A stretch of 64,000 nucleotides of DNA from Escherichia phage P479, in the sequence record MW269952.1; one strand, written 5' to 3'. Both the position numbers and the translations under genes were made by a program. Positions 4,588-64,000 of this stretch are shown piece by piece. Position 1 is the first letter of the stretch; each line of letters begins with the position of its first letter. Under the pieces are notes generated by a model that made no database searches, was not told the origin of the DNA, and saw only the letters and a list, made by a program, of their open reading frames with translations.

Positions 4588-4615
4588 GGGACTCTTCGGA
4601 GTCCCTTTTTTATTT
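4588..4615 (+). terminator. rho-independent terminator
   Basis: ggactc-ttcg-gagtcc hairpin followed by a T-run (ttttttatttt). Confidence 0.7.
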
Positions 4616-4626
4616 TCCATAAAGGG

Positions 4627-4656
4627 GTTTACAACAGGGTTTGACCAGTACATAAT
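4627..4656 (+). promoter_or_regulatory. T4-type early promoter (GTTTAC, 18 nt, CATAAT) with conserved leader gattccatactgagtta
   Basis: gtttac 4627-4632, cataat 4651-4656; a near-identical cassette lies at 27629-27699. Confidence 0.55.
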
Positions 4657-4697
4657 GATTCCATACTGAGTTACCAAATAAAACACTGGAGAATAAA

Positions 4698-5066
4698 ATG
4701 AAAATCAATCTTAACTCATACATCAAAGGTAAAGACCACGACGGGTACAAAGCCATTGAAACTAAAGAAATGCAATGGCACTTGTATAAAGAACAATTTG
4801 AATTTGTTGGTTGCATGACTCCAGAAGGTCCTTCTGATGACTTCTCTTGGAAAATTATGGTAACAAACTTTTTTACTGGTGATACCTACGAACTGAAAAC
4901 TATCGTAACTGGTAAGATTCGTTGTAAGACCTATGAAGATGAAGAAACTGGTTATTCTGAAGATGTTACATGGTATCAAAATGGTCGCACCACTGCAGAC
5001 CTTCTGATTGAAAAAATGAAAGCTAAGGGTGAATTAAATTTAGATAATTGGATTAAAGTCGCATAA
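4698..5066 (+). CDS. hypothetical protein, 122 aa
   Basis: ORF track; RBS ggag upstream. Confidence 0.5.
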   Translation: MKINLNSYIKGKDHDGYKAIETKEMQWHLYKEQFEFVGCMTPEGPSDDFSWKIMVTNFFTGDTYELKTIVTGKIRCKTYEDEETGYSEDVTWYQNGRTTADLLIEKMKAKGELNLDNWIKVA

Positions 5067-5137
5067 AACAGTTTACTTTGGTACAGGTTATGATATTATA
5101 GACCTGTACCAACAAATGAAAACAACTGGAGAATAAA

Positions 5138-5503
5138 ATGAACTACATCAACTTTGAACGCAAATATGTTTCTAACTGCATCCCAGGTTCTTCTGAAGTT
5201 ATTTGCTTGTGGAAACATAAAAATGGTTCAGTGTGCGAAATTGAACAGTATATGACTCCTAACTACGTTTATATGCGATTTGAAAATGGTATCACCCTTT
5301 CAATCACTATGACTGGTTCAACCTTTAAAATTGCTTTAGATGATGATTTCCGTGAACGTGATTTAGGGACTCATCCTTGCTGGAATGGTGTTAATCGCAA
5401 GCTGTTGGTTAAAACTTGGATTCGTCACATCCTGAGCAACAAAGCAAAACCTGAACACCTGGAAGCAATCTTTGATGTAGTTCTTAATGAATTTGATATC
5501 TAA
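5138..5503 (+). CDS. hypothetical protein, 121 aa
   Basis: ORF track; RBS actggagaataaaATG is shared with the 4698 ORF. Confidence 0.5.
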   Translation: MNYINFERKYVSNCIPGSSEVICLWKHKNGSVCEIEQYMTPNYVYMRFENGITLSITMTGSTFKIALDDDFRERDLGTHPCWNGVNRKLLVKTWIRHILSNKAKPEHLEAIFDVVLNEFDI

Positions 5504-27622: not shown

Positions 27623-27628
27623 AAAGTT

Positions 27629-27658
27629 GTTTACAACCAGATTAAGATAAGACATAAT
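27629..27658 (+). promoter_or_regulatory. T4-type early promoter (GTTTAC, 18 nt, CATAAT), second copy of the 4627 cassette
   Basis: gtttac 27629-27634, cataat 27653-27658, followed by gattccatactgagtta as at 4657-4673. Confidence 0.55.
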
Positions 27659-27699
27659 GATTCCATACTGAGTTAACAAACAAAACCTGGAGTTTAAAA

Positions 27700-57646: not shown

Positions 57647-58099
57647 ATGGCATACTCCGGGAAATGGCAACCTAAAAACGTTGCAAAGTACAAAGGAGAC
57701 TGGAAGAAAATTACCTACAGGTCAAACTGGGAAAAATTTGTATTTAACTGGTTGGATAATCATCCAGATGTGGTGCAATGGGGGTCAGAGACCGTTATCA
57801 TTCCATATTTTAGTAATGCGGATGGTAAAAAACGCAGGTATTACATGGATATGTGGGTAAAATTTTCAAATGGTCAACAATTTTTCTTTGAGGTTAAACC
57901 CAAAAAGGAAACAAGACCTCCAGCAAAACCAGTTAATACGACCGCTGCGAGCAAGAAGAGATTTATGAACGAAATGTATGTTTGGGCTGTTAATTCGGAT
58001 AAATGGAAAGCCGCTCAAGCTGTAGCTGATAAAATGGGCATCCAATTTAGATTGATTACTGAAGATGCACTTAGGAAAATGGGTTATAAGGGTTTATAA
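57647..58099 (+). CDS. 4: head completion protein gp4
   Basis: 150 aa; MAYSGKWQPKNVAKYKGDWKKITYRSNWEKF... matches recalled T4 gp4; divergent from gene 53 as in T4. Confidence 0.75.
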   Translation: MAYSGKWQPKNVAKYKGDWKKITYRSNWEKFVFNWLDNHPDVVQWGSETVIIPYFSNADGKKRRYYMDMWVKFSNGQQFFFEVKPKKETRPPAKPVNTTAASKKRFMNEMYVWAVNSDKWKAAQAVADKMGIQFRLITEDALRKMGYKGL

Positions 58100-58746
58100 T
58101 GTATACGGTATATCAAATAACAAATAAAATTAATAACAAAATTTACATCGGTGTGCACAAAACCGACAATATCGATGACAAGTATATGGGCACAGGGAAA
58201 TTAATATTAAAAGCTCATAAAAAATATGGTATTGAAAATTTTCAAAAGGATATTTTATTTGTTTTTGATTCCATCAATGAATCAGAGAACGAAAATTTAG
58301 CCTTTGCTAAAGAGGCTGATTTAGTCGACCAAGAATTTGTTAATCGGCCCGACACGTACAACATTGATTTGGGTGGTAGAGGCGGTCGCGGCCGCTCCGC
58401 TTCTGTTAGAAAACGTATTGGTGATGCCCAGCGAGGAAAACCTGGTAAAAAACCATCAAAAGAATCTCGTTTAAAAATGAGTTTGGCACACAAGGGTAAA
58501 AAATTATCCGAAGAACATAAGATAAAAATTGGCAATGCTGGCCGTGGTAAAAAGCGTCCTGAAAGTGCAAATGAAGCGGTTAGACAACATTTATTAGGGG
58601 TTCCTCGTAAAGAAGAACATAAAAATAATATGAGAATTGGTTTTCTAAATACACCTACCAAAATATGTCCACACTGTGGATTAGAATGCAAACCAGCCCC
58701 ATTTAAAAGATGGCATGGCGATAATTGCAAAGCGAGGAAAGGATGA
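58099..58746 (+). CDS. GIY-YIG homing endonuclease (Seg-like) inserted between genes 4 and 2
   Basis: N-terminus [19 protein letters not shown] is a GIY-YIG motif; NUMOD3-like repeats; C-terminal CPHCG...HGDNC zinc-finger-like; overlaps the gene 4 stop and gene 2 start. Confidence 0.75.
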
Positions 58747-59570
58747 GTATTTTTACATTTATCAATGAATCTGCAGATAAACCAGGTCCGAAACCCAGTA
58801 AATCAGAACAACAATGGGTTGAAATAGGGGTTGAATTTTATACAGCAAAAGAAAAGGGAATGACCTCGAAGAAGTTTGCTGAAGAGAAAGGAATCAACTA
58901 TTCGACCTTTACCAAAAGCATGTCAAGATATCATTCGAGAATTCAGACTGCTTATAAAGTATCCAAGCTCAAAAAGAAACCTGCCGGTAAACTTACGAAG
59001 GCTGAACGTCAGCTGATAATGGTGAATAGCTTTAGAAAGAGCATAAGAGATAAGATTGCTAACGAAGGCGCTGCAAGCAACACCAAATCTGCCAGATGGT
59101 TCGCTGAGACAATTAAGAAATCAGTTCGTGGTCACGTAACGGCTAAACCTCAACCGGGTAAGATTTATGCTTATATCTATGATGCAAAGCATAAGGATAC
59201 TCTTCCGTACTGGGATAAATATCCGTTAATCATTTATCTTGGGCTAGGTAAGCACAATTTGATGTATGGTTTGAACTTGCACTATATTCCACCGAAGGCA
59301 CGTCAAGAGTTCCTTGAGGAACTTCTTAAGCAATATGCTAATACTCCTACGATTACGAACAAGACTCATCTGAAGATTGATTGGTCAAAGGTGAAGGGAT
59401 TTAAAGGGGCTGACCAGATGATTAAAGCATATATACCTGGCAATATAAAAGGTACTATTACTGAAATCAAGCCCAGCGACTGGGCAAACGTTGTATTACT
59501 CCCCCTTCAGCAGTTTTTTTCAAAAGGCAAAAGATTTTCTTCACAGAAAGTATGGAGAAATTCACTTTGA
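58743..59570 (+). CDS. 2: DNA end protector protein gp2
   Basis: About 275 aa from the internal ATG (T4 gp2 274 aa); synteny 4-2-3-1. Confidence 0.75.
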
Positions 59571-60226
59571 ATTATCAGTTTATATATTCATCGTTAATTG
59601 AAAGGGCCCGTAACAGGGCCCTGATTTCATATAAAGAATCTCATCACATCATTCCGAAATGTATGGGCGGTTCAAATGCTCCGGATAACCTAGTCGATTT
59701 GACTCCCGAAGAACATTATGTAGCCCATCAACTATTGGTTAAAATATATCCTACAAATCCAGGTTTAAGTTTTGCTGCCACATCTATGAGCCAGTCAAGC
59801 AAGTATTTGAAACGCAATAATAAATTATTTGGCTGGTTAAGACGCAGACACGCTGACAATATTTCTAAAAGCCAAACCGGTAAAGTTTACTTTAATAATG
59901 GTGTCAAATCGATAAAACTATTTCCATGGGAAGATGTTCCGGATGGGTTTGTCAAAGGAAGACATTACAGTCCAACCAAGGGTACAAAACATTCTCGCAA
60001 TAATGGACATTTTAAAAATAAAGAGATTCAGGATGAATTGAGAAAGCGCCGGTGGGAAAAAGATAGGCAAGAAATGTGTAAAAACTTCGGAGTTGATACC
60101 ATCGAGCAAGCTCGAGAGTTGGTCCTAGCATATAAAAAGGAATTGCATCCTCGATACTGGGTAAAGCCAATGTTGGAACGTTATCCGTTTATGACTAAGC
60201 TAAGACTTAACACATTAATAAAATAA
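59552..60226 (+). CDS. HNH-family homing endonuclease (Mob-like) inserted between genes 2 and 3
   Basis: [30 protein letters not shown] motif; paralogous to 20422-21207 and to the partial gene at 1-118; overlaps the gene 2 3' end. Confidence 0.7.
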
Positions 60227-60311: not shown

Positions 60312-60911
60312 ATGTCAGGTTTATATAATCAAACTAACACGACTAACTTTATATTAGAGGTAAGCGATTCAAACCTCACACAGACCTTTAAACTCAACGT
60401 TCAAGACGTTACCCTCCCAGGAGTTCACATTCCTGTGACGGATGTCCCTGGGGGAACACAAGGTATAAATCGCTCCAGTCTTCCTGGTAGTACAATAGAA
60501 TTCGACCCGCTGATTGTTAACTTTCTGTGTGACAAAGACCTAAGAGCGTGGCTTGACATCTATAAATGGATGCTCTCGCTCAACAACTACATCACACACG
60601 AATCAAAAGCATGGCATCCGAAAGGTCGTCCCGAAGCGGTCACGCTTCATATCTTAGATAACAACAAGGACAAAATTGTCATGTCAATCCATTACTATGG
60701 AGCATGGCCGTCCGACCTGTCAGAGATTCAGTATTCATATAAAGAAGATTCTGACCCGGCCATCAATGCAACAGCGACTTTTAACTTTAAGTCTTTTGCT
60801 GTAGAAATTGATGGTATAATAATAGAAGGTAGACCACAGATTGATAGTAATGCAACAATGCAACAGGAAATCAGGTCTAAGTCAATGCATCCATCTATGA
60901 GAAACGTATGA
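60312..60911 (+). CDS. 3: tail completion / sheath terminator protein gp3
   Basis: ORF 60252-60911; start placed at the internal ATG 60312 (uncertain); synteny between 2 and 1. Confidence 0.6.
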   Translation: MSGLYNQTNTTNFILEVSDSNLTQTFKLNVQDVTLPGVHIPVTDVPGGTQGINRSSLPGSTIEFDPLIVNFLCDKDLRAWLDIYKWMLSLNNYITHESKAWHPKGRPEAVTLHILDNNKDKIVMSIHYYGAWPSDLSEIQYSYKEDSDPAINATATFNFKSFAVEIDGIIIEGRPQIDSNATMQQEIRSKSMHPSMRNV

Positions 60912-61584
60912 AATTAATTGCGATTGTGGGTAAAAAACGCAGTGGTAAAGATACGACTGCTGATTATGTTATTAGTCAAAACGGAACAAAGTGGCAGCTT
61001 GCAGGTCCGATTAAAGAAGCGCTTTATAAAGCGTGGATTCGTCAAGACCTGCCACACAATTTGACCCTGGAAAATTTTGATGGACAAGGTTACGACCGTG
61101 AAAAAACCTTAATAATGAACAACACCGAAGCTTATATTCTTCTGGTTGATGCTCTTGAATGGTTGAAACAACAATACAATCTTGACCTTCCGAATCCGGA
61201 TATGGTTCGTAAAATTATTGAATTTCACACACTAAATAATGTTGAGCCCTGGACAGTTAGACGTTTCATGCAGACCCTTGGAACTGATATTGTTTGTACA
61301 GAGTTCGACAGCATGTTTTGGATTAAAACTTTTGCCTGCGACTATCTTGACAACCTCTATTCTGGATATAAATATTACGTTGTCCCAGATGTTCGCCAAA
61401 AGAACGAACTTGATTCGCTTCGGGCGATGGGTGCTACAATAATCTTTGTAGAACGCGATGAAGCAAATCATTCTACTGATACACACATTACGGAAGCTGG
61501 ACTTCCACCACTAGCTAGTGACATTGTTATTAAAAACGATGGCACACTCGAAGAACTTTTTGATAAAATTAATAAGGTAATATA

Positions 61585-61585
<1 letters not shown>
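60908..61585 (+). CDS. 1: deoxynucleoside monophosphate kinase gp1
   Basis: MKLIAIVGKKRSGKDTTADYV... P-loop; ...VPDVRQKNELDSLRAMGATIIFV...THITEAGLP... matches recalled T4 gp1. Confidence 0.85.
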
Positions 61586-62276
<691 letters not shown>

Positions 62277-62315
62277 TGTACAAATGAGTGTAGGTGCAGT
62301 ATTATGTTCCTACAC
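62277..62315 (+). promoter_or_regulatory. promoter-containing stem-loop cassette (TGTACA, 17 nt, TATTAT; stem gtgtagg/cctacac)
   Basis: -35-like tgtaca 62277-62282, -10-like tattat 62300-62305 in the loop of a 7-bp stem (62288-62294 / 62309-62315). Confidence 0.5.
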
Positions 62316-62336
62316 CAACGAACAAACGGAGTTAAT

Positions 62337-62669
62337 ATGAACATCAAAACTTACAACGAGTTTTTAGCCGAATCCGCCATCAATGAGACCAAATCAATTG
62401 ATGATAGTGAAGGCTCTCTGAAATTTGGTTTAACCAAAAATGCAGATGGTGTTTTCTTTCAGATTGGTAATGAACGTTTTCAAACGTCCAAATATTCCAA
62501 AGCTGCAGTTGAAGCTGTCCTGAAATCTGGTGGCAAGTGGAAAGGCAAAGAAGGTACTAAAGAAATTGGTATCGCTGTTGACGGTGGTATGGCTTATTTT
62601 AAAATTGGCGATGAACAATTTATTATGTCTGCTCGCGGACGTAAAGAACTGGCAAAACTTTATAAATAA
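62337..62669 (+). CDS. internal-protein-like small protein 1 (CTS-like N-terminus MNIKTYNEFLAE)
   Basis: Internal ATG with RBS ggag; N-terminus fits the T4 capsid targeting sequence pattern ending in a hydrophobic-x-E cleavage motif; internal repeat FFQIGNERF / YFKIGDEQF. Confidence 0.55.
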   Translation: MNIKTYNEFLAESAINETKSIDDSEGSLKFGLTKNADGVFFQIGNERFQTSKYSKAAVEAVLKSGGKWKGKEGTKEIGIAVDGGMAYFKIGDEQFIMSARGRKELAKLYK

Positions 62670-62677
62670 GGTTTCTT

Positions 62678-62950
62678 ATGAAAACTTTCAATGAATTTTT
62701 CAACGAGTCCCAACTGAACGAAGAAGTAAAAATTAGTAAAGCAGTCAAAGCTATGATTGACAATATCAATCACCTGTATAGCATTGACTTAACTGACCAT
62801 ATAACAATTGGCAACAAACGCAACTTTTTCGCGTTTGACATTTCAGAACTTGACCAGAACCAAATTAATAACATTGAGCGATTTGCCAATGACAAGGGTC
62901 TCCGTCATGAGACAGCTGGTTATAAAAAATATGCAATTTATCTAAAATAG
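62678..62950 (+). CDS. internal-protein-like small protein 2 (CTS-like N-terminus MKTFNEFFNE)
   Basis: ORF track, 90 aa; CTS-like N-terminus. Confidence 0.55.
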   Translation: MKTFNEFFNESQLNEEVKISKAVKAMIDNINHLYSIDLTDHITIGNKRNFFAFDISELDQNQINNIERFANDKGLRHETAGYKKYAIYLK

Positions 62951-62958
62951 GATTTCAA

Positions 62959-63258
62959 ATGCAAACTTTTCATGAATTTTTGGTAGAAAACAATTACCTG
63001 GCAGAAGCAAAAACCTGGCCTCTGGGTCTTCAGAAGAAAAACACCTACAAATGGGTTGACTTCAAAGGTAAAGGCGACGCTGAAGACTTTGACCAGCTAC
63101 GCAAAAATGGTTATACCTTCCTTGACTCCAACTATAACAAAATTACCTCTTTTAGTCAGAAGTCAAGCATTGCCTTCATTGAAACTGGTAAGAACTCTCC
63201 TAAAGATATTTCTGACGACTTCGCCGCTTATGGTGTAATTCGTGGTTCAAAAATGTAA
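62959..63258 (+). CDS. internal-protein-like small protein 3 (CTS-like N-terminus MQTFHEFLVE)
   Basis: ORF track, 99 aa; CTS-like N-terminus. Confidence 0.55.
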   Translation: MQTFHEFLVENNYLAEAKTWPLGLQKKNTYKWVDFKGKGDAEDFDQLRKNGYTFLDSNYNKITSFSQKSSIAFIETGKNSPKDISDDFAAYGVIRGSKM

Positions 63259-63266
63259 AAATGTAA

Positions 63267-63304
63267 TGTACACGATGGGATAGTTGCAGTATAATTATCC
63301 CATC
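63267..63304 (+). promoter_or_regulatory. promoter-containing stem-loop cassette (TGTACA, 17 nt, TATAAT; stem gatgggata/tatcccatc)
   Basis: 9-bp perfect stem 63274-63282 / 63296-63304 with loop gttgcagTATAAT. Confidence 0.55.
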
Positions 63305-63321
63305 AACTACTGGAGCTACTA

Positions 63322-63600
63322 ATGAAAACTTATCAAGAATTTATTAACGAATCAATTAATCACCCGGATATGCTGGAAGACCTGAAAGGACATCTGATGG
63401 TTAAGGCCCGACCGGTTGATGGTGGCGCATTTGAGTTGTTTCTTGTTAAAGGCGAAAACGGTCCTGATAACAAGAAAGTTTCAGCAATGATGTTGACTAA
63501 AGGTTACAAAGTCAGTTCTTCCTGGAATGCTCCATTCACTTACGCGGTAAGCCCTCGTGAACTGAAAAAAGTTAAAGCTGGACAATATACAAAAATTTAG
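63322..63600 (+). CDS. internal-protein-like small protein 4 (CTS-like N-terminus MKTYQEFINE)
   Basis: ORF track, 92 aa; first ten residues nearly identical to the recalled T4 CTS MKTYQEFIAE; RBS ggag. Confidence 0.6.
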   Translation: MKTYQEFINESINHPDMLEDLKGHLMVKARPVDGGAFELFLVKGENGPDNKKVSAMMLTKGYKVSSSWNAPFTYAVSPRELKKVKAGQYTKI

Positions 63601-63601
63601 T

Positions 63602-63639
63602 GTACGTGATGGGATAGTTGCAGTATGATTATCCCATCA
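63602..63639 (+). promoter_or_regulatory. promoter-containing stem-loop cassette (TGTACG, 17 nt, TATGAT), third copy
   Basis: Same 9-bp stem (63609-63617 / 63631-63639) and loop gttgcagtatgat as the 63267 copy. Confidence 0.5.
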
Positions 63640-63657
63640 ACTACTGAGGAGAATAAA

Positions 63658-63843
63658 ATGAAACGTTGTGAATTAATTAGAAATGCTACTGCCCTTGTTG
63701 CTGTTACCGCTTTTGGTTTTAGCATGTTTGCTGGCTTTATGTTGAATATGCTTTCAACTTCTGAGAATATAATCTCTTTAGTAGTTGCATTTTTAATTGG
63801 TTCAATCTCTTTCGTTATGGATAAAATCTCCAAAGGTGAGTAA
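63658..63843 (+). CDS. small predicted membrane protein (about 61 aa, two hydrophobic segments)
   Basis: Internal ATG with RBS gaggag; hydrophobic stretches ALVAVTAFGFSMFAGFML and IISLVVAFLIGSISFV. Confidence 0.45.
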   Translation: MKRCELIRNATALVAVTAFGFSMFAGFMLNMLSTSENIISLVVAFLIGSISFVMDKISKGE

Positions 63844-63844
63844 A

Positions 63845-64000
63845 ATGTATAAAGTGTATGCGGATTATCAGGCAAATCCATCTGAAAAACCAGATTGTCA
63901 AATTGGGTGGGCGCATGACACCCTGCTTGAAGCGGTAAATGAAGCACAGAAATTAGGATATAGTTATGTAGATATTGTTCAACCTAGTGGAACAGTTATT
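63845..64000 (+). CDS. hypothetical protein, 5' part (continues beyond the right window edge)
   Basis: ATG at 63845; open to the end of the window (MYKVYADYQANPSEKPDCQIGW...). Confidence 0.35.
   Translation, partial: MYKVYADYQANPSEKPDCQIGWAHDTLLEAVNEAQKLGYSYVDIVQPSGTVI

What the first reader, a model, noticed from the sequence alone, without database searches (positions are those of the whole stretch)
62277..63639. Three copies of a promoter-in-stem-loop cassette (TGTACA, 17 nt, TATAAT-like hexamer inside a hairpin loop) punctuating the internal-protein array
Seen: at 62277-62315, 63267-63304 and 63602-63639 a -35-like TGTAC(A/G) is followed after exactly 17 nt by TATTAT, TATAAT or TATGAT. 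In each case the -10-like hexamer sits in the loop of a 7-9-bp perfect stem (gtgtagg/cctacac once, gatgggata/tatcccatc twice), with loop sequence (g)ttgcagtat-at conserved. The two 9-bp-stem copies are about 95% identical over 50 bp and sit just upstream of the RBS of ORF 4 and of the membrane-protein ORF. Inference: these resemble the mobile promoter/stem-loop cassettes reported for hyperplastic regions of T4-type genomes and could serve both as early promoters and as short homology patches that let cargo genes be swapped by recombination.
Basis: partly seen in the sequence, partly recalled or inferred. Interest (0 to 1): 0.65.

Follow-up and report, generated by a model that had tools for sequence, protein, structure and literature searches.

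The report
Early-promoter/hairpin cassettes flanking internal-protein genes
Three short repeats, each a promoter-like sequence wrapped in a hairpin, separate the small injected "internal protein" genes of a T4-like coliphage and mark where related phages have gained or lost these genes; the element type has been described since 1994, so this is a clean new example rather than a discovery.

Summary
TGTAC(A/G)-N17-TATNAT occurs three times in 64 kb (0.07 expected). In each copy the -10-like hexamer lies in the loop of a perfect 7-10 bp stem. The third copy starts at 63601, not 63602, and the two 9-bp-stem copies are 88% identical over 50 nt (97% over the 39-nt core), not about 95%.

The window is a Gaprivervirus (VR7/SP18-like, about 98% to PSD2001). 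The locus is 57B(Acb1) - four genes with capsid-targeting leaders - trna.4.

In 14 genomes, ten of the fourteen kinds of gene junction that differ between genomes carry this cassette. An eleventh (N|C) has the same architecture with a different stem, one has a promoter-less hairpin, and two (B|E, B|J) have none. The left edge of the cassette follows the upstream gene and the right edge follows the downstream gene, around a shared core. The window's third copy is such a chimera, matching loss of one gene relative to TH41 or VR7.

T4 has the same architecture on both sides of ipI, with compensatory stem changes. T4 ipI and trna.4 RNAs are early class.

These are the IP-locus promoter/stem-loop repeats of Repoila 1994, later called PeSL-like (Arbiol 2010, Comeau 2014). 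Promoter activity and the role of the hairpin remain untested. The hairpin has no U-tract and lies upstream of the predicted start.

The parts
62277..62336 (+). Cassette 1, at the 57B(Acb1)|ORF A junction. -35-like TGTACA is at 62277-62282, followed by a 17-nt spacer and -10-like TATTAT at 62300-62305. The stem is 62288-62294 / 62309-62315. The predicted start is near A62312, inside the 3' arm. GGAG is at 62328-62331 and the ATG at 62337.
   Evidence: It is present at the same junction in all 14 genomes. Relatives have longer or compensated stems (TH44 10 bp, RZ 9 bp).
63250..63321 (+). Cassette 2, at the ORF E|ORF F junction. An A-rich, UP-like tract lies at 63250-63266 and includes an 8-nt tandem duplication, AAATGTAA x2. 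-35-like TGTACA is at 63267-63272 and -10 TATAAT at 63290-63295. The stem is 63274-63282 / 63296-63304. The predicted start is near A63302. GGAG is at 63312-63315 and the ATG at 63322.
   Evidence: (10/12 match to the sigma-70 consensus).
63586..63657 (+). Cassette 3, at the ORF F|trna.4-like junction. -35-like TGTACG is at 63601-63606 and -10 TATGAT at 63624-63629. The stem is 63608-63616 / 63630-63638 (10 bp if 63607/63639 are counted). The predicted start is near A63636. GAGGAG is at 63646-63651 and the ATG at 63658. It is a chimera: the left half matches the cassette that follows F in other genomes, and the right half matches the cassette that precedes trna.4.
62337..62669 (+). ORF A, 110 aa, starting MNIKTYNEFLAE, a leader like a capsid-targeting sequence. 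It is the fixed first gene of the array.
   Evidence: phrog_3966. Present in 14/14 genomes.
62678..62950 (+). ORF B (ip9-like internal head protein, 90 aa). It lies 8 nt after A, with no cassette between them.
   Evidence: phrog_7673, internal head protein, E = 1.7e-56.
62959..63258 (+). ORF E (internal-head-protein family, 99 aa). It lies 8 nt after B, with no cassette between them. E is absent in VR26, RZ and MN01 and is a pseudogene in SP18.
   Evidence: phrog_2667.
63322..63600 (+). ORF F (92 aa, starting MKTYQEFINE). It is a variable cargo gene bracketed by cassettes 2 and 3, which start 334 bp apart.
   Evidence: F is absent in EAWsc9, ECML359, VR26, RZ and MN01. In TH44 it follows gene J instead of E.
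63658..63843 (+). The trna.4-like small membrane protein (61 aa), which forms the fixed right border of the array.
   Evidence: phrog_1692. Its leader CAACTACTGAGGAGAATAAAATGAAACG is identical to the leader in T4.
62661..62668 (+). T4-type late-promoter motif TATAAATA within the last codons of ORF A. It would give late transcripts that read through cassettes 2 and 3.
   Evidence: 22 matches in the window against 4.7 expected. Conserved in 14/14 genomes at the A|B junction.
5072..5117 (+). A fourth cassette with the same architecture, at another locus between the 30.8 and 30.7 homologues. It reads TTTACT-16 nt-TATTAT, with the -10 in the loop of the stem GGTACAGGT/ACCTGTACC, followed by CAAC.
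   Evidence: (-17.4 kcal/mol, z = -5.4).

Best explanation
These are the Gaprivervirus versions of the repeated early-promoter/stem-loop cassettes that flank internal-protein (IP) genes in T-even phages. They are PeSL-like elements. Each cassette is about 55-70 bp and fills the space between the stop codon of one small gene and the ribosome-binding site of the next.

(1) Promoter (inferred). Host sigma-70 RNA polymerase would use an A-rich tract formed by the Lys-rich last codons and the stop codon of the upstream gene. It would then use a T4-type -35 ((G)TGTAC, compare T4 GTTTAC), a 17-bp spacer and a TATAAT-like -10. It would start about 7 nt downstream at the A of CCCATCAAC. This would give the downstream gene its own early transcript with a leader of about 20 nt.

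(2) Hairpin (existence and conservation shown, role inferred). The predicted start lies inside the 3' arm, so the hairpin is absent from the cassette's own transcript. It can form only in RNA reading through from upstream or in single-stranded DNA. Such upstream RNA would come from an earlier cassette or from the late promoter at 62661. The hairpin has no U-tract. My best guess is that it attenuates, insulates or protects the 3' end of upstream messages, and that it raises slippage or recombination between neighbouring copies.

(3) Recombination patch (shown by comparison). The shared core ATGGGATA...TAT(A/G)ATTATCCCATCAACTACTG, often extended by the conserved leader-coding start of the next gene, gives 12-73 nt of exact identity between copies about 290-334 bp apart. 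Homologous exchange or replication slippage within it deletes, inserts or swaps single promoter-plus-gene modules without breaking expression. The window's F|trna.4 cassette is the product of such an event.
For: The motif and the hairpins are non-random. The window is a Gaprivervirus and the locus is 57B-IP array-trna.4.

Fourteen genomes show nine gene orders. The cassette is present at junction types E|F, F|I, F|K, F|C, J|F, J|I, J|K, I|C, K|C and I|N. It is absent from the junctions A|B, B|E and B|J, whose 8-nt spacers are nearly the same in every genome; A|B is the only one of these whose gene neighbours never change.

In 34 aligned cassettes, variation left of the core is explained by the upstream gene (normalised mutual information, MI/H, about 0.8-0.9, against 0.3-0.6 for the downstream gene). 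Variation right of the core is explained by the downstream gene (about 0.9). Polymorphic sites within the core track neither side strongly.

Alignment of window/PSD2001/SP18 against TH41 (plus gene I, 310 bp) and VR7 (plus gene K, 289 bp) places both indel ends inside the repeat. The crossover points differ between the window and SP18.

T4 has the same architecture at 57B|ipI (stem GATGAGGTA/TACCTCATC) and at ipI|trna.4, and the trna.4 leader is identical. Relative to the Gaprivervirus stem, the T4 57B|ipI stem carries two fully compensatory pair changes in the same register. Six other genera have GTTTAC-N17-TACTAT with stems of their own. Of 22 cassettes, 19 fold with shuffle p <= 0.063, and there are at least 9 different stem sequences.

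The -10 polymorphisms (TATAAT, TATGAT, TACAAT, TATTAT, TAATAT, TACTAT) always keep T1, A2 and T6.

In T4 time-course data the ipI and trna.4 RNAs are early class while the upstream 57B RNA is middle class (PMC9697503 supplement).

The literature describes this element kind. See Arbiol 2010 (PMC2839356), including its account of Repoila 1994, and Comeau 2014 (PMC4122927).
Against: No transcription start has been mapped for this phage. The -35 is a poor sigma-70 match (TGTACA 4/6, TGTACG 3/6, and TATACG after gene J in relatives), and there is no TGn extended -10. The third copy scores only 8/12 and was not called by the consensus scan.

The hairpin is followed by AACUACUG, not a U-run, so canonical intrinsic termination is not supported. 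RNAalifold finds no column-wise consensus structure across genera because the arms sit in different registers.

Exact identity between neighbouring copies is often only 12-25 nt. That is short for efficient T4 recombination: Arbiol 2010, citing Singer 1982, describes T4 recombination as needing only patches under 50 bp.

Replacement of E by J directly after B (VR26, RZ, MN01) has no cassette at its left boundary. The direction of each event (deletion or insertion) cannot be told.
Confidence: 0.8

Rival explanations
1. The cassettes are ordinary early promoters copied along with their genes when IP genes duplicated and diverged. The shared sequence reflects common descent and promoter constraint only, the hairpin is incidental, and the cassettes play no part in rearrangement.
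For: All cargo genes share a homologous leader (MKTYxEF), which is consistent with an old duplication. The promoter-like features are conserved.
Against: The left and right cassette edges assort independently, with the upstream and the downstream gene respectively. The same gene F is preceded by E or by J and followed by C, I or K, and each case has a correspondingly chimeric cassette. Cargo genes are far more diverged than the cassette cores: families are below 50% protein identity, while the cores are nearly identical. Stems differ between cassettes and genera yet stay paired. Other early-type promoters in the same window (939, 4627, 11474, 24637) have no such stem.
Confidence: 0.08
2. The hairpins are primarily transcription terminators or RNA-processing sites for the upstream gene, and the -35/-10-like hexamers are chance features of AT-rich loops.
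For: PeSL stem-loops of RB49/phi1 reduced downstream lacZ expression as strongly as rrnB T1 (PMC2839356). In relatives the E|J junction holds a related stem, GGGGATA/TATCCCC, with a T5 run and no -10.
Against: There is no U-tract after any of the three stems, and the terminator scan calls none of them. The -35/-10 spacing of 16-18 nt, the invariant T1/A2/T6 of the -10 and the CATCAAC start region persist across seven genera while the stem sequence changes. T4 ipI RNA is early class although the upstream 57B RNA is middle class, which requires a promoter between them.
Confidence: 0.07
3. The hairpins are structure-specific recombination sites, like attC sites of integrons, cut and joined by a dedicated phage or host enzyme. 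On this reading the IP array is an integron-like gene-cassette system.
For: Structure is conserved while sequence varies between cassette types. The modules are single genes about 290-334 bp apart. Arbiol 2010 drew the integron analogy and detected mini-circles for RB49/phi1. In TH57, gene F is flanked by two half-mismatched stems that would form one compensated stem if joined.
Against: Crossover points are not fixed. The window switches within the loop, SP18 switches 3' of the -10, and polymorphic core sites show intermediate linkage to both flanks. That pattern fits homology-driven exchange. No integrase-like gene lies in the locus. The TH57 pattern is a single case.
Confidence: 0.04
4. The inverted repeat around the -10 is an operator for a dimeric DNA-binding regulator that switches these promoters off or on.
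For: A palindrome centred on the -10 is a classical operator arrangement.
Against: The palindrome sequence differs within one genome (GTGTAGG versus GATGGGATA, and GGTACAGGT at 5072) and between genera, with compensatory changes. This fits base-pairing rather than a sequence-specific protein.
Confidence: 0.01

Closest known systems
IP-locus flanking repeats of T-even phages (Repoila, Tetart, Bouet & Krisch 1994, EMBO J 13:4181). I could not read this paper here. It is known to me through its description in PMC2839356 and from memory of its abstract.
   Same: The genomic position is the same, between 57B and trna.4. The cargo is the same: small ORFs with the conserved capsid-targeting leader. 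The architecture is the same: a T4-type early promoter with an overlapping inverted repeat on both sides of each ORF. The proposed role, shuffling of IP genes, is also the same. T4's own copies read here are homologous, with an identical trna.4 leader and a stem differing by compensatory pairs.
   Different: The -35 here is (G)TGTAC or GTATAC instead of GTTTAC, and the -10 is TATAAT/TATGAT/TATTAT instead of TACTAT. There is no TGn. The stem sequence is specific to the genus. This cassette was found in only 34 phage records, all of those listed Gaprivervirus, with 1-4 copies each.
PeSLs (promoter-early stem-loops) of RB49/phi1 (Arbiol et al. 2010, PMC2839356) and of PST/T4 and nt-1/KVP40 (Comeau et al. 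2014, PMC4122927)
   Same: Both are composite elements: an AT-rich tract, a sigma-70-type -35/N17/-10, a stem-loop and then an SD and start codon. Both are intergenic, lie in hyperplastic regions and sit next to indels. The stem overlaps the -10, which is one of the common RB49 subclasses. Here, as in RB49/phi1, single-ORF indels are bounded by two cassettes.
   Different: There is no sequence homology to RB49 PeSLs, which have G-run/C-run stems and a near-perfect TTGACA. Arbiol et al. themselves call the T-even IP elements analogues, not homologues. In the PST/T4 set the stem lies upstream of the promoter. Terminator activity, promoter activity and mini-circles were shown for RB49/phi1 but have not been tested for these elements.
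Integron attC sites
   Same: Both have short imperfect palindromes bounding single-gene cassettes, with structure more conserved than sequence.
   Different: attC sites are promoter-less and are recombined at a fixed position by an integrase acting on the folded strand. Here each cassette carries a promoter, crossover points vary, and no integrase is present.
Rho-independent terminators
   Same: Both have a stable stem-loop just after a stop codon.
   Different: These elements have no downstream U-tract. Genuine terminators in the same window have one (AAAGGGACC-TTCG-GGTCCCTTT plus a T-run, five copies; also 4588-4615).

Membership tests
T-even IP-locus promoter/inverted-repeat elements (Repoila 1994) | Located in the IP locus between 57B and trna.4, on both sides of ORFs that carry the conserved capsid-targeting leader | tested here: met
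   Gene order and PHROG/Pfam assignments. Leaders MNIKTYNEF, MKTFNEF, MQTFHEF and MKTYQEF.
T-even IP-locus promoter/inverted-repeat elements (Repoila 1994) | T4-type early promoter sequence with an overlapping inverted repeat | tested here: met
   T4's own elements have the same layout and partly identical sequence.
T-even IP-locus promoter/inverted-repeat elements (Repoila 1994) | Number, order and identity of the flanked ORFs vary between related phages | tested here: met
   Nine gene orders in 14 genomes.
PeSL (Arbiol 2010 / Comeau 2014) | Sigma-70-like -35 and -10 separated by about 17 nt, with an AT-rich region upstream | tested here: met
   The -35 match is weak (3-4 of 6 to TTGACA, 5 of 6 to T4 TTTACA). 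An AAAAAT tract lies 5-14 nt upstream of the -35 (5-6 nt in most cassettes; 13-14 nt in the window's copy 2, owing to its 8-nt duplication).
PeSL (Arbiol 2010 / Comeau 2014) | Stable stem-loop within or next to the promoter | tested here: met
   dG of -14.8 to -21.2 kcal/mol, z of -2.4 to -4.8.
PeSL (Arbiol 2010 / Comeau 2014) | Intergenic, starting at the upstream stop codon and ending with the SD and start codon of the downstream ORF | tested here: met
PeSL (Arbiol 2010 / Comeau 2014) | Preferentially at insertion, deletion or replacement boundaries between close relatives | tested here: met
   One counter-example: the B|E versus B|J replacement.
PeSL (Arbiol 2010 / Comeau 2014) | Demonstrated strong promoter activity | not testable with these tools
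   Only indirect support: T4 ipI and trna.4 RNAs are early class.
PeSL (Arbiol 2010 / Comeau 2014) | The stem-loop acts as a terminator or attenuator | tested here: inconclusive
   The stem is present, but there is no U-tract and the terminator scan makes no call. A reporter assay is needed.
PeSL (Arbiol 2010 / Comeau 2014) | Formation of excised mini-circles | not testable with these tools
   Needs inverse PCR on infected cells or virion DNA.
PeSL (Arbiol 2010 / Comeau 2014) | Sequence homology to the RB49/phi1 consensus (TTGACA, G-run loop C-run) | tested here: not met
   The stems are GATGGGATA and GTGTAGG, and the -35 is TGTAC. These are analogues, as Arbiol et al. state for T-even IP elements.
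Rho-independent terminator | GC-rich stem followed directly by a U-run | tested here: not met
   The stems are followed by AACGAACA or AACTACTG, and the scan makes no call.
Rfam RNA families | Match to any curated covariance model | tested here: not met
   No hit at E <= 1 in 61500-64000.
T4 middle (MotA) or late promoter | MotA box (a/t)(a/t)TGCTT(t/c)a at -30, or TATAAATA at -10 | tested here: not met
   Neither motif is present in the three cassettes. TATAAATA occurs separately at 62661.

The most novel reading that the evidence does not exclude
The hairpin, not the homology, may be the active element. The cassettes would then be structure-specific sites, attC-like or cut as cruciforms or hairpins by a phage nuclease. 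They would excise and integrate single promoter-plus-gene circles, making the internal-protein array an integron-like system that lets T4-type phages trade injected anti-defence proteins. Two observations hint at this: stems covary across genera, and in TH57 gene F is flanked by two half-mismatched stems that would form one compensated stem in a circle.
Probability: 0.05. Interest if true: 0.75.

Novelty: new member of a known kind. Interest (0 to 1): 0.25.

Why it matters
Internal proteins are injected with the DNA, and at least one of them (T4 IPI) disarms a host restriction system. The next gene upstream, 57B, is the anti-CBASS enzyme Acb1. A built-in way to swap single, self-expressing IP genes would let these phages change their counter-defence set quickly. 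The 14-genome comparison gives a clear natural record of such swaps, with breakpoints resolved to a few nucleotides. That record is useful for annotating Gaprivervirus genomes, including correcting ORF starts called inside the cassettes. It is also useful for engineering, because the cassettes are natural landing pads for cargo. The mechanism itself is not new.

Tried and rejected
- **Rfam scan of 61500-64000 at E <= 1:** no hit.
- **RNAalifold on 16 cassettes from seven genera:** no consensus structure, because the stems sit in different registers relative to the -35/-10. I therefore used per-sequence folds with shuffles and direct comparison of arms.
- **Terminator reading:** rejected as the main function. 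There is no U-tract and the scan makes no call.
- **Middle or late promoter reading:** rejected. The motifs are absent.
- **Operator reading:** rejected. The palindrome sequence is not conserved.
- **Experimental T4 start sites:** the T4 genome review (PMC150520) and Repoila 1994 (PMC395341) are not held. The GenBank T4 records carry no promoter features at this locus. A 2026 preprint reports 150 T4 TSSs by dRNA-seq, but its TSS table is not among the held supplements.
- **Exact-pattern scan of IMG/VR for the core:** only three contigs. From their contig lengths (170,336 and 170,822 nt) I take two to be VR20 and VR25; this was not checked by sequence. The third has the same stem upstream of a gene-31-like ORF.
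- **Test of the 5072 cassette as an indel boundary:** the nearby SP18 insertion (30.6A) is instead bounded by terminator hairpins upstream of a different promoter.
Full report
**1. The observation**

The pattern TGTACR-N17-TATNAT occurs exactly three times in the 64-kb window, all on the + strand: 62277-62305, 63267-63295 and 63601-63629. Dinucleotide shuffles give 0.07 expected matches, and none of 100 shuffles reached three.

The sequence shows the stems directly:
- gtgtagg/cctacac at 62288-62294 / 62309-62315
- gatgggata/tatcccatc at 63274-63282 / 63296-63304
- gatgggata/tatcccatc at 63608-63616 / 63630-63638

In each case the -10-like hexamer lies in the loop. The 31-nt stem-loop of copy 2 recurs once, in copy 3, with a single mismatch, the A-to-G change in the -10. 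As RNA the three regions fold at -14.8, -17.3 and -21.2 kcal/mol, with z = -2.4, -3.2 and -4.8.

Two corrections are needed. Copies 2 and 3 are 88% identical over 50 nt from the -35, 93.5% over 46 nt and 97% over the 39-nt core.

**2. Where the window comes from**

The region is 98% identical to Escherichia phage PSD2001 and 92-98% identical to TH41, UPEC01, VR7, VR20 and SP18, all Gaprivervirus (Tevenvirinae). The gene order is as follows.

| Coordinates | Gene |
|---|---|
| 60908-61585 | gene 1 (dNMP kinase) |
| 61585-61821 | 57A |
| 61821-62276 | 57B, which is Acb1 (PF23474, E = 1.5e-59) |
| 62337-62669 | A |
| 62678-62950 | B |
| 62959-63258 | E |
| 63322-63600 | F |
| 63658-63843 | trna.4-like membrane protein (C) |

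A, B, E and F are small ORFs whose N-termini resemble the T4 capsid-targeting leader. B and E match PHROG 'internal head protein' families. This is the locus that holds ipI in T4.

The three cassettes fill the 57B|A, E|F and F|C intergenic spaces. The A|B and B|E spaces are only 8 nt long and have no cassette.

**3. Comparison with relatives**

I fetched the locus from 13 Gaprivervirus genomes, clustered the ORFs into families and read every junction. With the window included, the 14 genomes show nine gene orders between 57B and trna.4 (C).

| Genomes | Gene order |
|---|---|
| window, PSD2001 | A B E F C |
| SP18 | A B (E pseudogene) F C |
| UPEC01, TH41 | A B E F I C |
| VR7, VR20, TH57 | A B E F K C |
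| TH44 | A B E J F I C |
| EAWsc9, ECML359 | A B E J I C |
| VR26 | A B J K C |
| RZ, MN01 | A B J I N C |

Ten of the junction types that differ between genomes carry the same cassette of about 55 nt: E|F, F|I, F|K, F|C, J|F, J|I, J|K, I|C, K|C and I|N. The N|C junction has a cassette of the same architecture but a different stem, GGTCTAG/CTAGACC. The E|J junction has a promoter-less hairpin with a T-run.

The 5' end of the cassette goes with the upstream gene:
- TGTACAC after E
- TGTACGT after F
- GTATACGC after J
- GTGTACTTTT after I and K

The 3' end goes with the downstream gene:
- GGAGCTACTA before F in most genomes
- GGAGACCAC or GGAGACAAC before I
- GGAGACAAC before K
- AGGAGAATAAA before C
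- AGGGTCAAAAA before N

In a MAFFT alignment of 34 cassettes I computed normalised mutual information (MI/H) between each variable column and the flanking gene. For columns left of the core, MI/H with the upstream gene is about 0.8-0.9, against 0.3-0.6 with the downstream gene. For columns right of the core, the downstream gene explains about 0.9. The few polymorphic core positions track neither side strongly.

The window's F|C cassette is therefore a chimera: an F-type left end joined to a C-type right end. Aligning it with TH41 (which has gene I, plus 310 bp) and VR7 (which has gene K, plus 289 bp) puts both ends of the indel inside the repeat. SP18 has the same F|C adjacency but switches further to the right, 3' of the -10. 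The window switches within the loop. Crossover points are therefore not fixed.

Exact identity between neighbouring copies ranges from 12 to 73 nt. The longer runs include the conserved leader-coding start of the next gene.

One event does not fit. In VR26, RZ and MN01, gene J follows B directly across the 8-nt B|E-type spacer, so that boundary has only microhomology.

**4. The same architecture elsewhere**

T4 itself has two such elements.
- 57B|ipI reads GTTTACATACTGATGAGGTAGTGATACTATTACCTCATCAAAA, with stem GATGAGGTA/TACCTCATC and -10 TACTAT in the loop.
- ipI|trna.4 reads GTTTACATAGGGTTTTAGCTGTGATACTATTACCCTATCAACTACTGAGGAGAATAAAATG.

The trna.4 leader is identical to that in the window. 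Compared with the Gaprivervirus stem GATGGGATA/TATCCCATC, the T4 57B|ipI stem differs at two pairs, both fully compensated (A-T for G-C and G-C for A-T), in the same register.

Mosigvirus, Jiaodavirus, Moonvirus, Kanagawavirus and Gualtarvirus loci also show GTTTAC-N17-TACTAT (or TATGAT) with stems of their own, followed by (T)ATCAA. Of 22 cassettes folded with 300 dinucleotide shuffles each, 19 have p <= 0.063, and at least nine different stem sequences occur.

RNAalifold gave no column-wise consensus because the arms lie in different registers. The evidence for selection on pairing is therefore the per-element statistics and the in-register compensations, not an alignment-wide covariation score.

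Within the window, a scan for T4-type promoters found a fourth promoter-in-hairpin cassette at 5072-5117. It also found several early-type promoters (939, 4627, 11474, 24637) that have no stem. The hairpin is therefore not a by-product of the promoter consensus.

**5. How it most likely works**

*Promoter (inferred).* Several features point to a promoter:
- The spacing is conserved at 16-18 nt.
- T1, A2 and T6 of the -10 are invariant through all polymorphisms.
- An AAAAAT tract lies 5-14 nt upstream of the -35 (5-6 nt in most cassettes; 13-14 nt in the window's copy 2, because of its 8-nt duplication). It is formed by the Lys-rich last codons and the stop codon of otherwise unrelated genes.
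- The CATCAAC start region is conserved.
- The position is about 20-30 nt ahead of an SD.

In a T4 time-course dataset, ipI and trna.4 RNAs are early class while the upstream 57B RNA is middle class. This requires promoters at the homologous T4 positions (PMC9697503 supplement).

Some features weaken the case. The -35 is weak, there is no TGn, and copy 3 has TGTACG/TATGAT.

*Hairpin (existence shown, role inferred).* The predicted start, 7 nt after the -10, falls inside the 3' arm. The cassette's own transcript therefore lacks the hairpin. Only read-through RNA or single-stranded DNA can fold it. Read-through RNA would come from an upstream cassette or from the late-promoter motif TATAAATA at 62661-62668.

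There is no U-tract, and the terminator scan makes no call. I therefore favour attenuation, insulation or 3'-end protection of upstream messages, together with stimulation of slippage between copies. I rate this part at only about 0.4.

*Recombination (shown by comparison).* This is covered in section 3. Crossovers are scattered through the core, which fits homology-driven exchange or replication slippage rather than a site-specific enzyme.

**6. What is already known**

Arbiol et al. 2010 defined PeSLs in RB49/phi1. A PeSL has an AT-rich tract, a sigma-70-like promoter, a stem-loop that often lies between the boxes or overlaps the -10, and then an SD and start codon. PeSLs are concentrated in hyperplastic regions next to ORFs that differ between relatives. 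Promoter activity, terminator activity and mini-circles were demonstrated for them.

The discussion in that paper states that Repoila et al. [quoted passage not shown] These were based on T4 early promoters with weaker, AT-richer stems, and are analogues rather than homologues of RB49 PeSLs. Comeau et al. 2014 extended PeSLs to PST/T4 (TTTACW-N17-TAYWAT) and to nt-1/KVP40, and again pointed to the IP locus.

The elements in this window meet every sequence-level criterion of that kind and are homologous to T4's ipI-flanking copies. They fail only the criterion of homology to the RB49 consensus. Their promoter, terminator and mini-circle activities are untested. I found no paper describing them specifically for VR7-like phages.

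By blastn, this cassette occurs in 34 phage records, all of those listed Gaprivervirus, with 1-4 copies each. In addition, one IMG/VR T4-like contig has the same stem upstream of a gene-31-like ORF.

**7. Verdict**

The finding is a new member of a known kind. It gives a tidy natural record of cassette-bounded gene swapping in an anti-defence locus, but no new principle. I score interest at 0.25.

The most novel reading still open is a structure-specific, integron-like mechanism. I give it about 5%, because the crossover points vary.

Noticed in passing
window 5072-5117: A fourth promoter-in-hairpin cassette, not listed in the finding. It reads GTTTACT-16 nt-TATTAT, with the -10 in the loop of GGTACAGGT/ACCTGTACC (-17.4 kcal/mol, z = -5.4), followed by CAAC and an SD. 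It lies between homologues of T4 30.8 and 30.7.
   Followed up: partly
window 4588-4700 and 27623-27686: A second family of repeated early promoter plus leader (GTTTACAAC...CATAATGATTCCATACTGAGTTACC..., 78% identical over 64 nt) with no overlapping stem. At 4588-4615 a separate terminator (GGGACTCTTCGGAGTCCC plus a T-run) lies just upstream. In VR7, SP18, TH57 and VR26 the same leader follows a promoter with the GGGATA/TATCCC stem (for example L003:7654), so promoters and leaders appear to be mosaic.
   Followed up: partly
L021 (SP18) about 490-515 and 876-900, corresponding to window about 4588-4620: SP18 and three other relatives carry an extra gene (30.6A, about 380 bp) inserted between two near-identical terminator hairpins (GACTC-TTCG-GAGTC plus a T-run). 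Terminator hairpins also appear to mark indel ends.
   Followed up: partly
window 63251-63266: An 8-nt tandem duplication, AAATGTAA AAATGTAA, between the stop codon of ORF E and the -35 of cassette 2. It is shared only with SP18. In the other genomes the stop codon abuts TGTACA. The duplication shifts the A-tract by 8 nt relative to the -35.
   Followed up: no
L005:4260-4305, L006:4264-4308, L012:4264-4308 (E|J junction): A promoter-less relative of the cassette: GGGGATAATTATCCCC followed by TTTTTAT. This is a canonical-looking terminator built from nearly the same arms (GGGATA/TATCCC).
   Followed up: no
L009 (TH57) 4758-4812 and 5092-5145: Gene F is flanked upstream by a stem with a G.T mismatch (3' arm TATCTCATC) and downstream by a stem with an A.C mismatch (5' arm GATGAGATA). 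Joined in a circle, these two halves would form a fully compensated A-T pair. That is the pattern expected after a circular F module integrates, but it is a single case.
   Followed up: no
window 62661-62668: The T4 late-promoter motif TATAAATA lies within the last codons of ORF A and is conserved in all 14 genomes. It would drive late transcription of B, E and F through the hairpins. The motif is strongly enriched in the window (22 matches against 4.7 expected).
   Followed up: partly
window 62304 and 63625: The -10 variants TATTATG and TATGAT create in-frame ATGs. ORF callers use them to extend ORF A (121 aa instead of 110 aa, as annotated in PSD2001, VR7, SP18 and VR26) and trna.4 (72 aa instead of 61 aa) into the cassettes. 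These are probable misannotations.
   Followed up: partly
window 58099-58746 and 59552-60226: Two ORFs resembling homing endonucleases flank gene 2. The first has GIY-YIG and NUMOD3 motifs. The second has an HNH-like HHIIPK...N...H motif but no Pfam hit, and lies where VR7 has a MobB-like gene. Their presence varies among relatives.
   Followed up: partly
window 61821-62276: Gene 57B, immediately upstream of the IP array, is the anti-CBASS phosphodiesterase Acb1 (PF23474, E = 1.5e-59). The cassette-bounded array therefore sits next to a known counter-defence gene.
   Followed up: partly
L025:2560-2640 (IMG/VR contig of 165.8 kb): An identical stem, GATGGGATA/TATCCCATC, around TATAAT lies upstream of a gene-31-like (GroES-like) ORF in another T4-like phage. 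The stem-promoter unit therefore also occurs outside IP loci and outside the sampled Gaprivervirus isolates.
   Followed up: no
window 11820, 24565, 26280, 27983, 47690: Five copies, in either orientation, of a terminator-like repeat, AAAGGGACC-TTCG-GGTCCCTTT, with flanking A/T runs (family D1).
   Followed up: no
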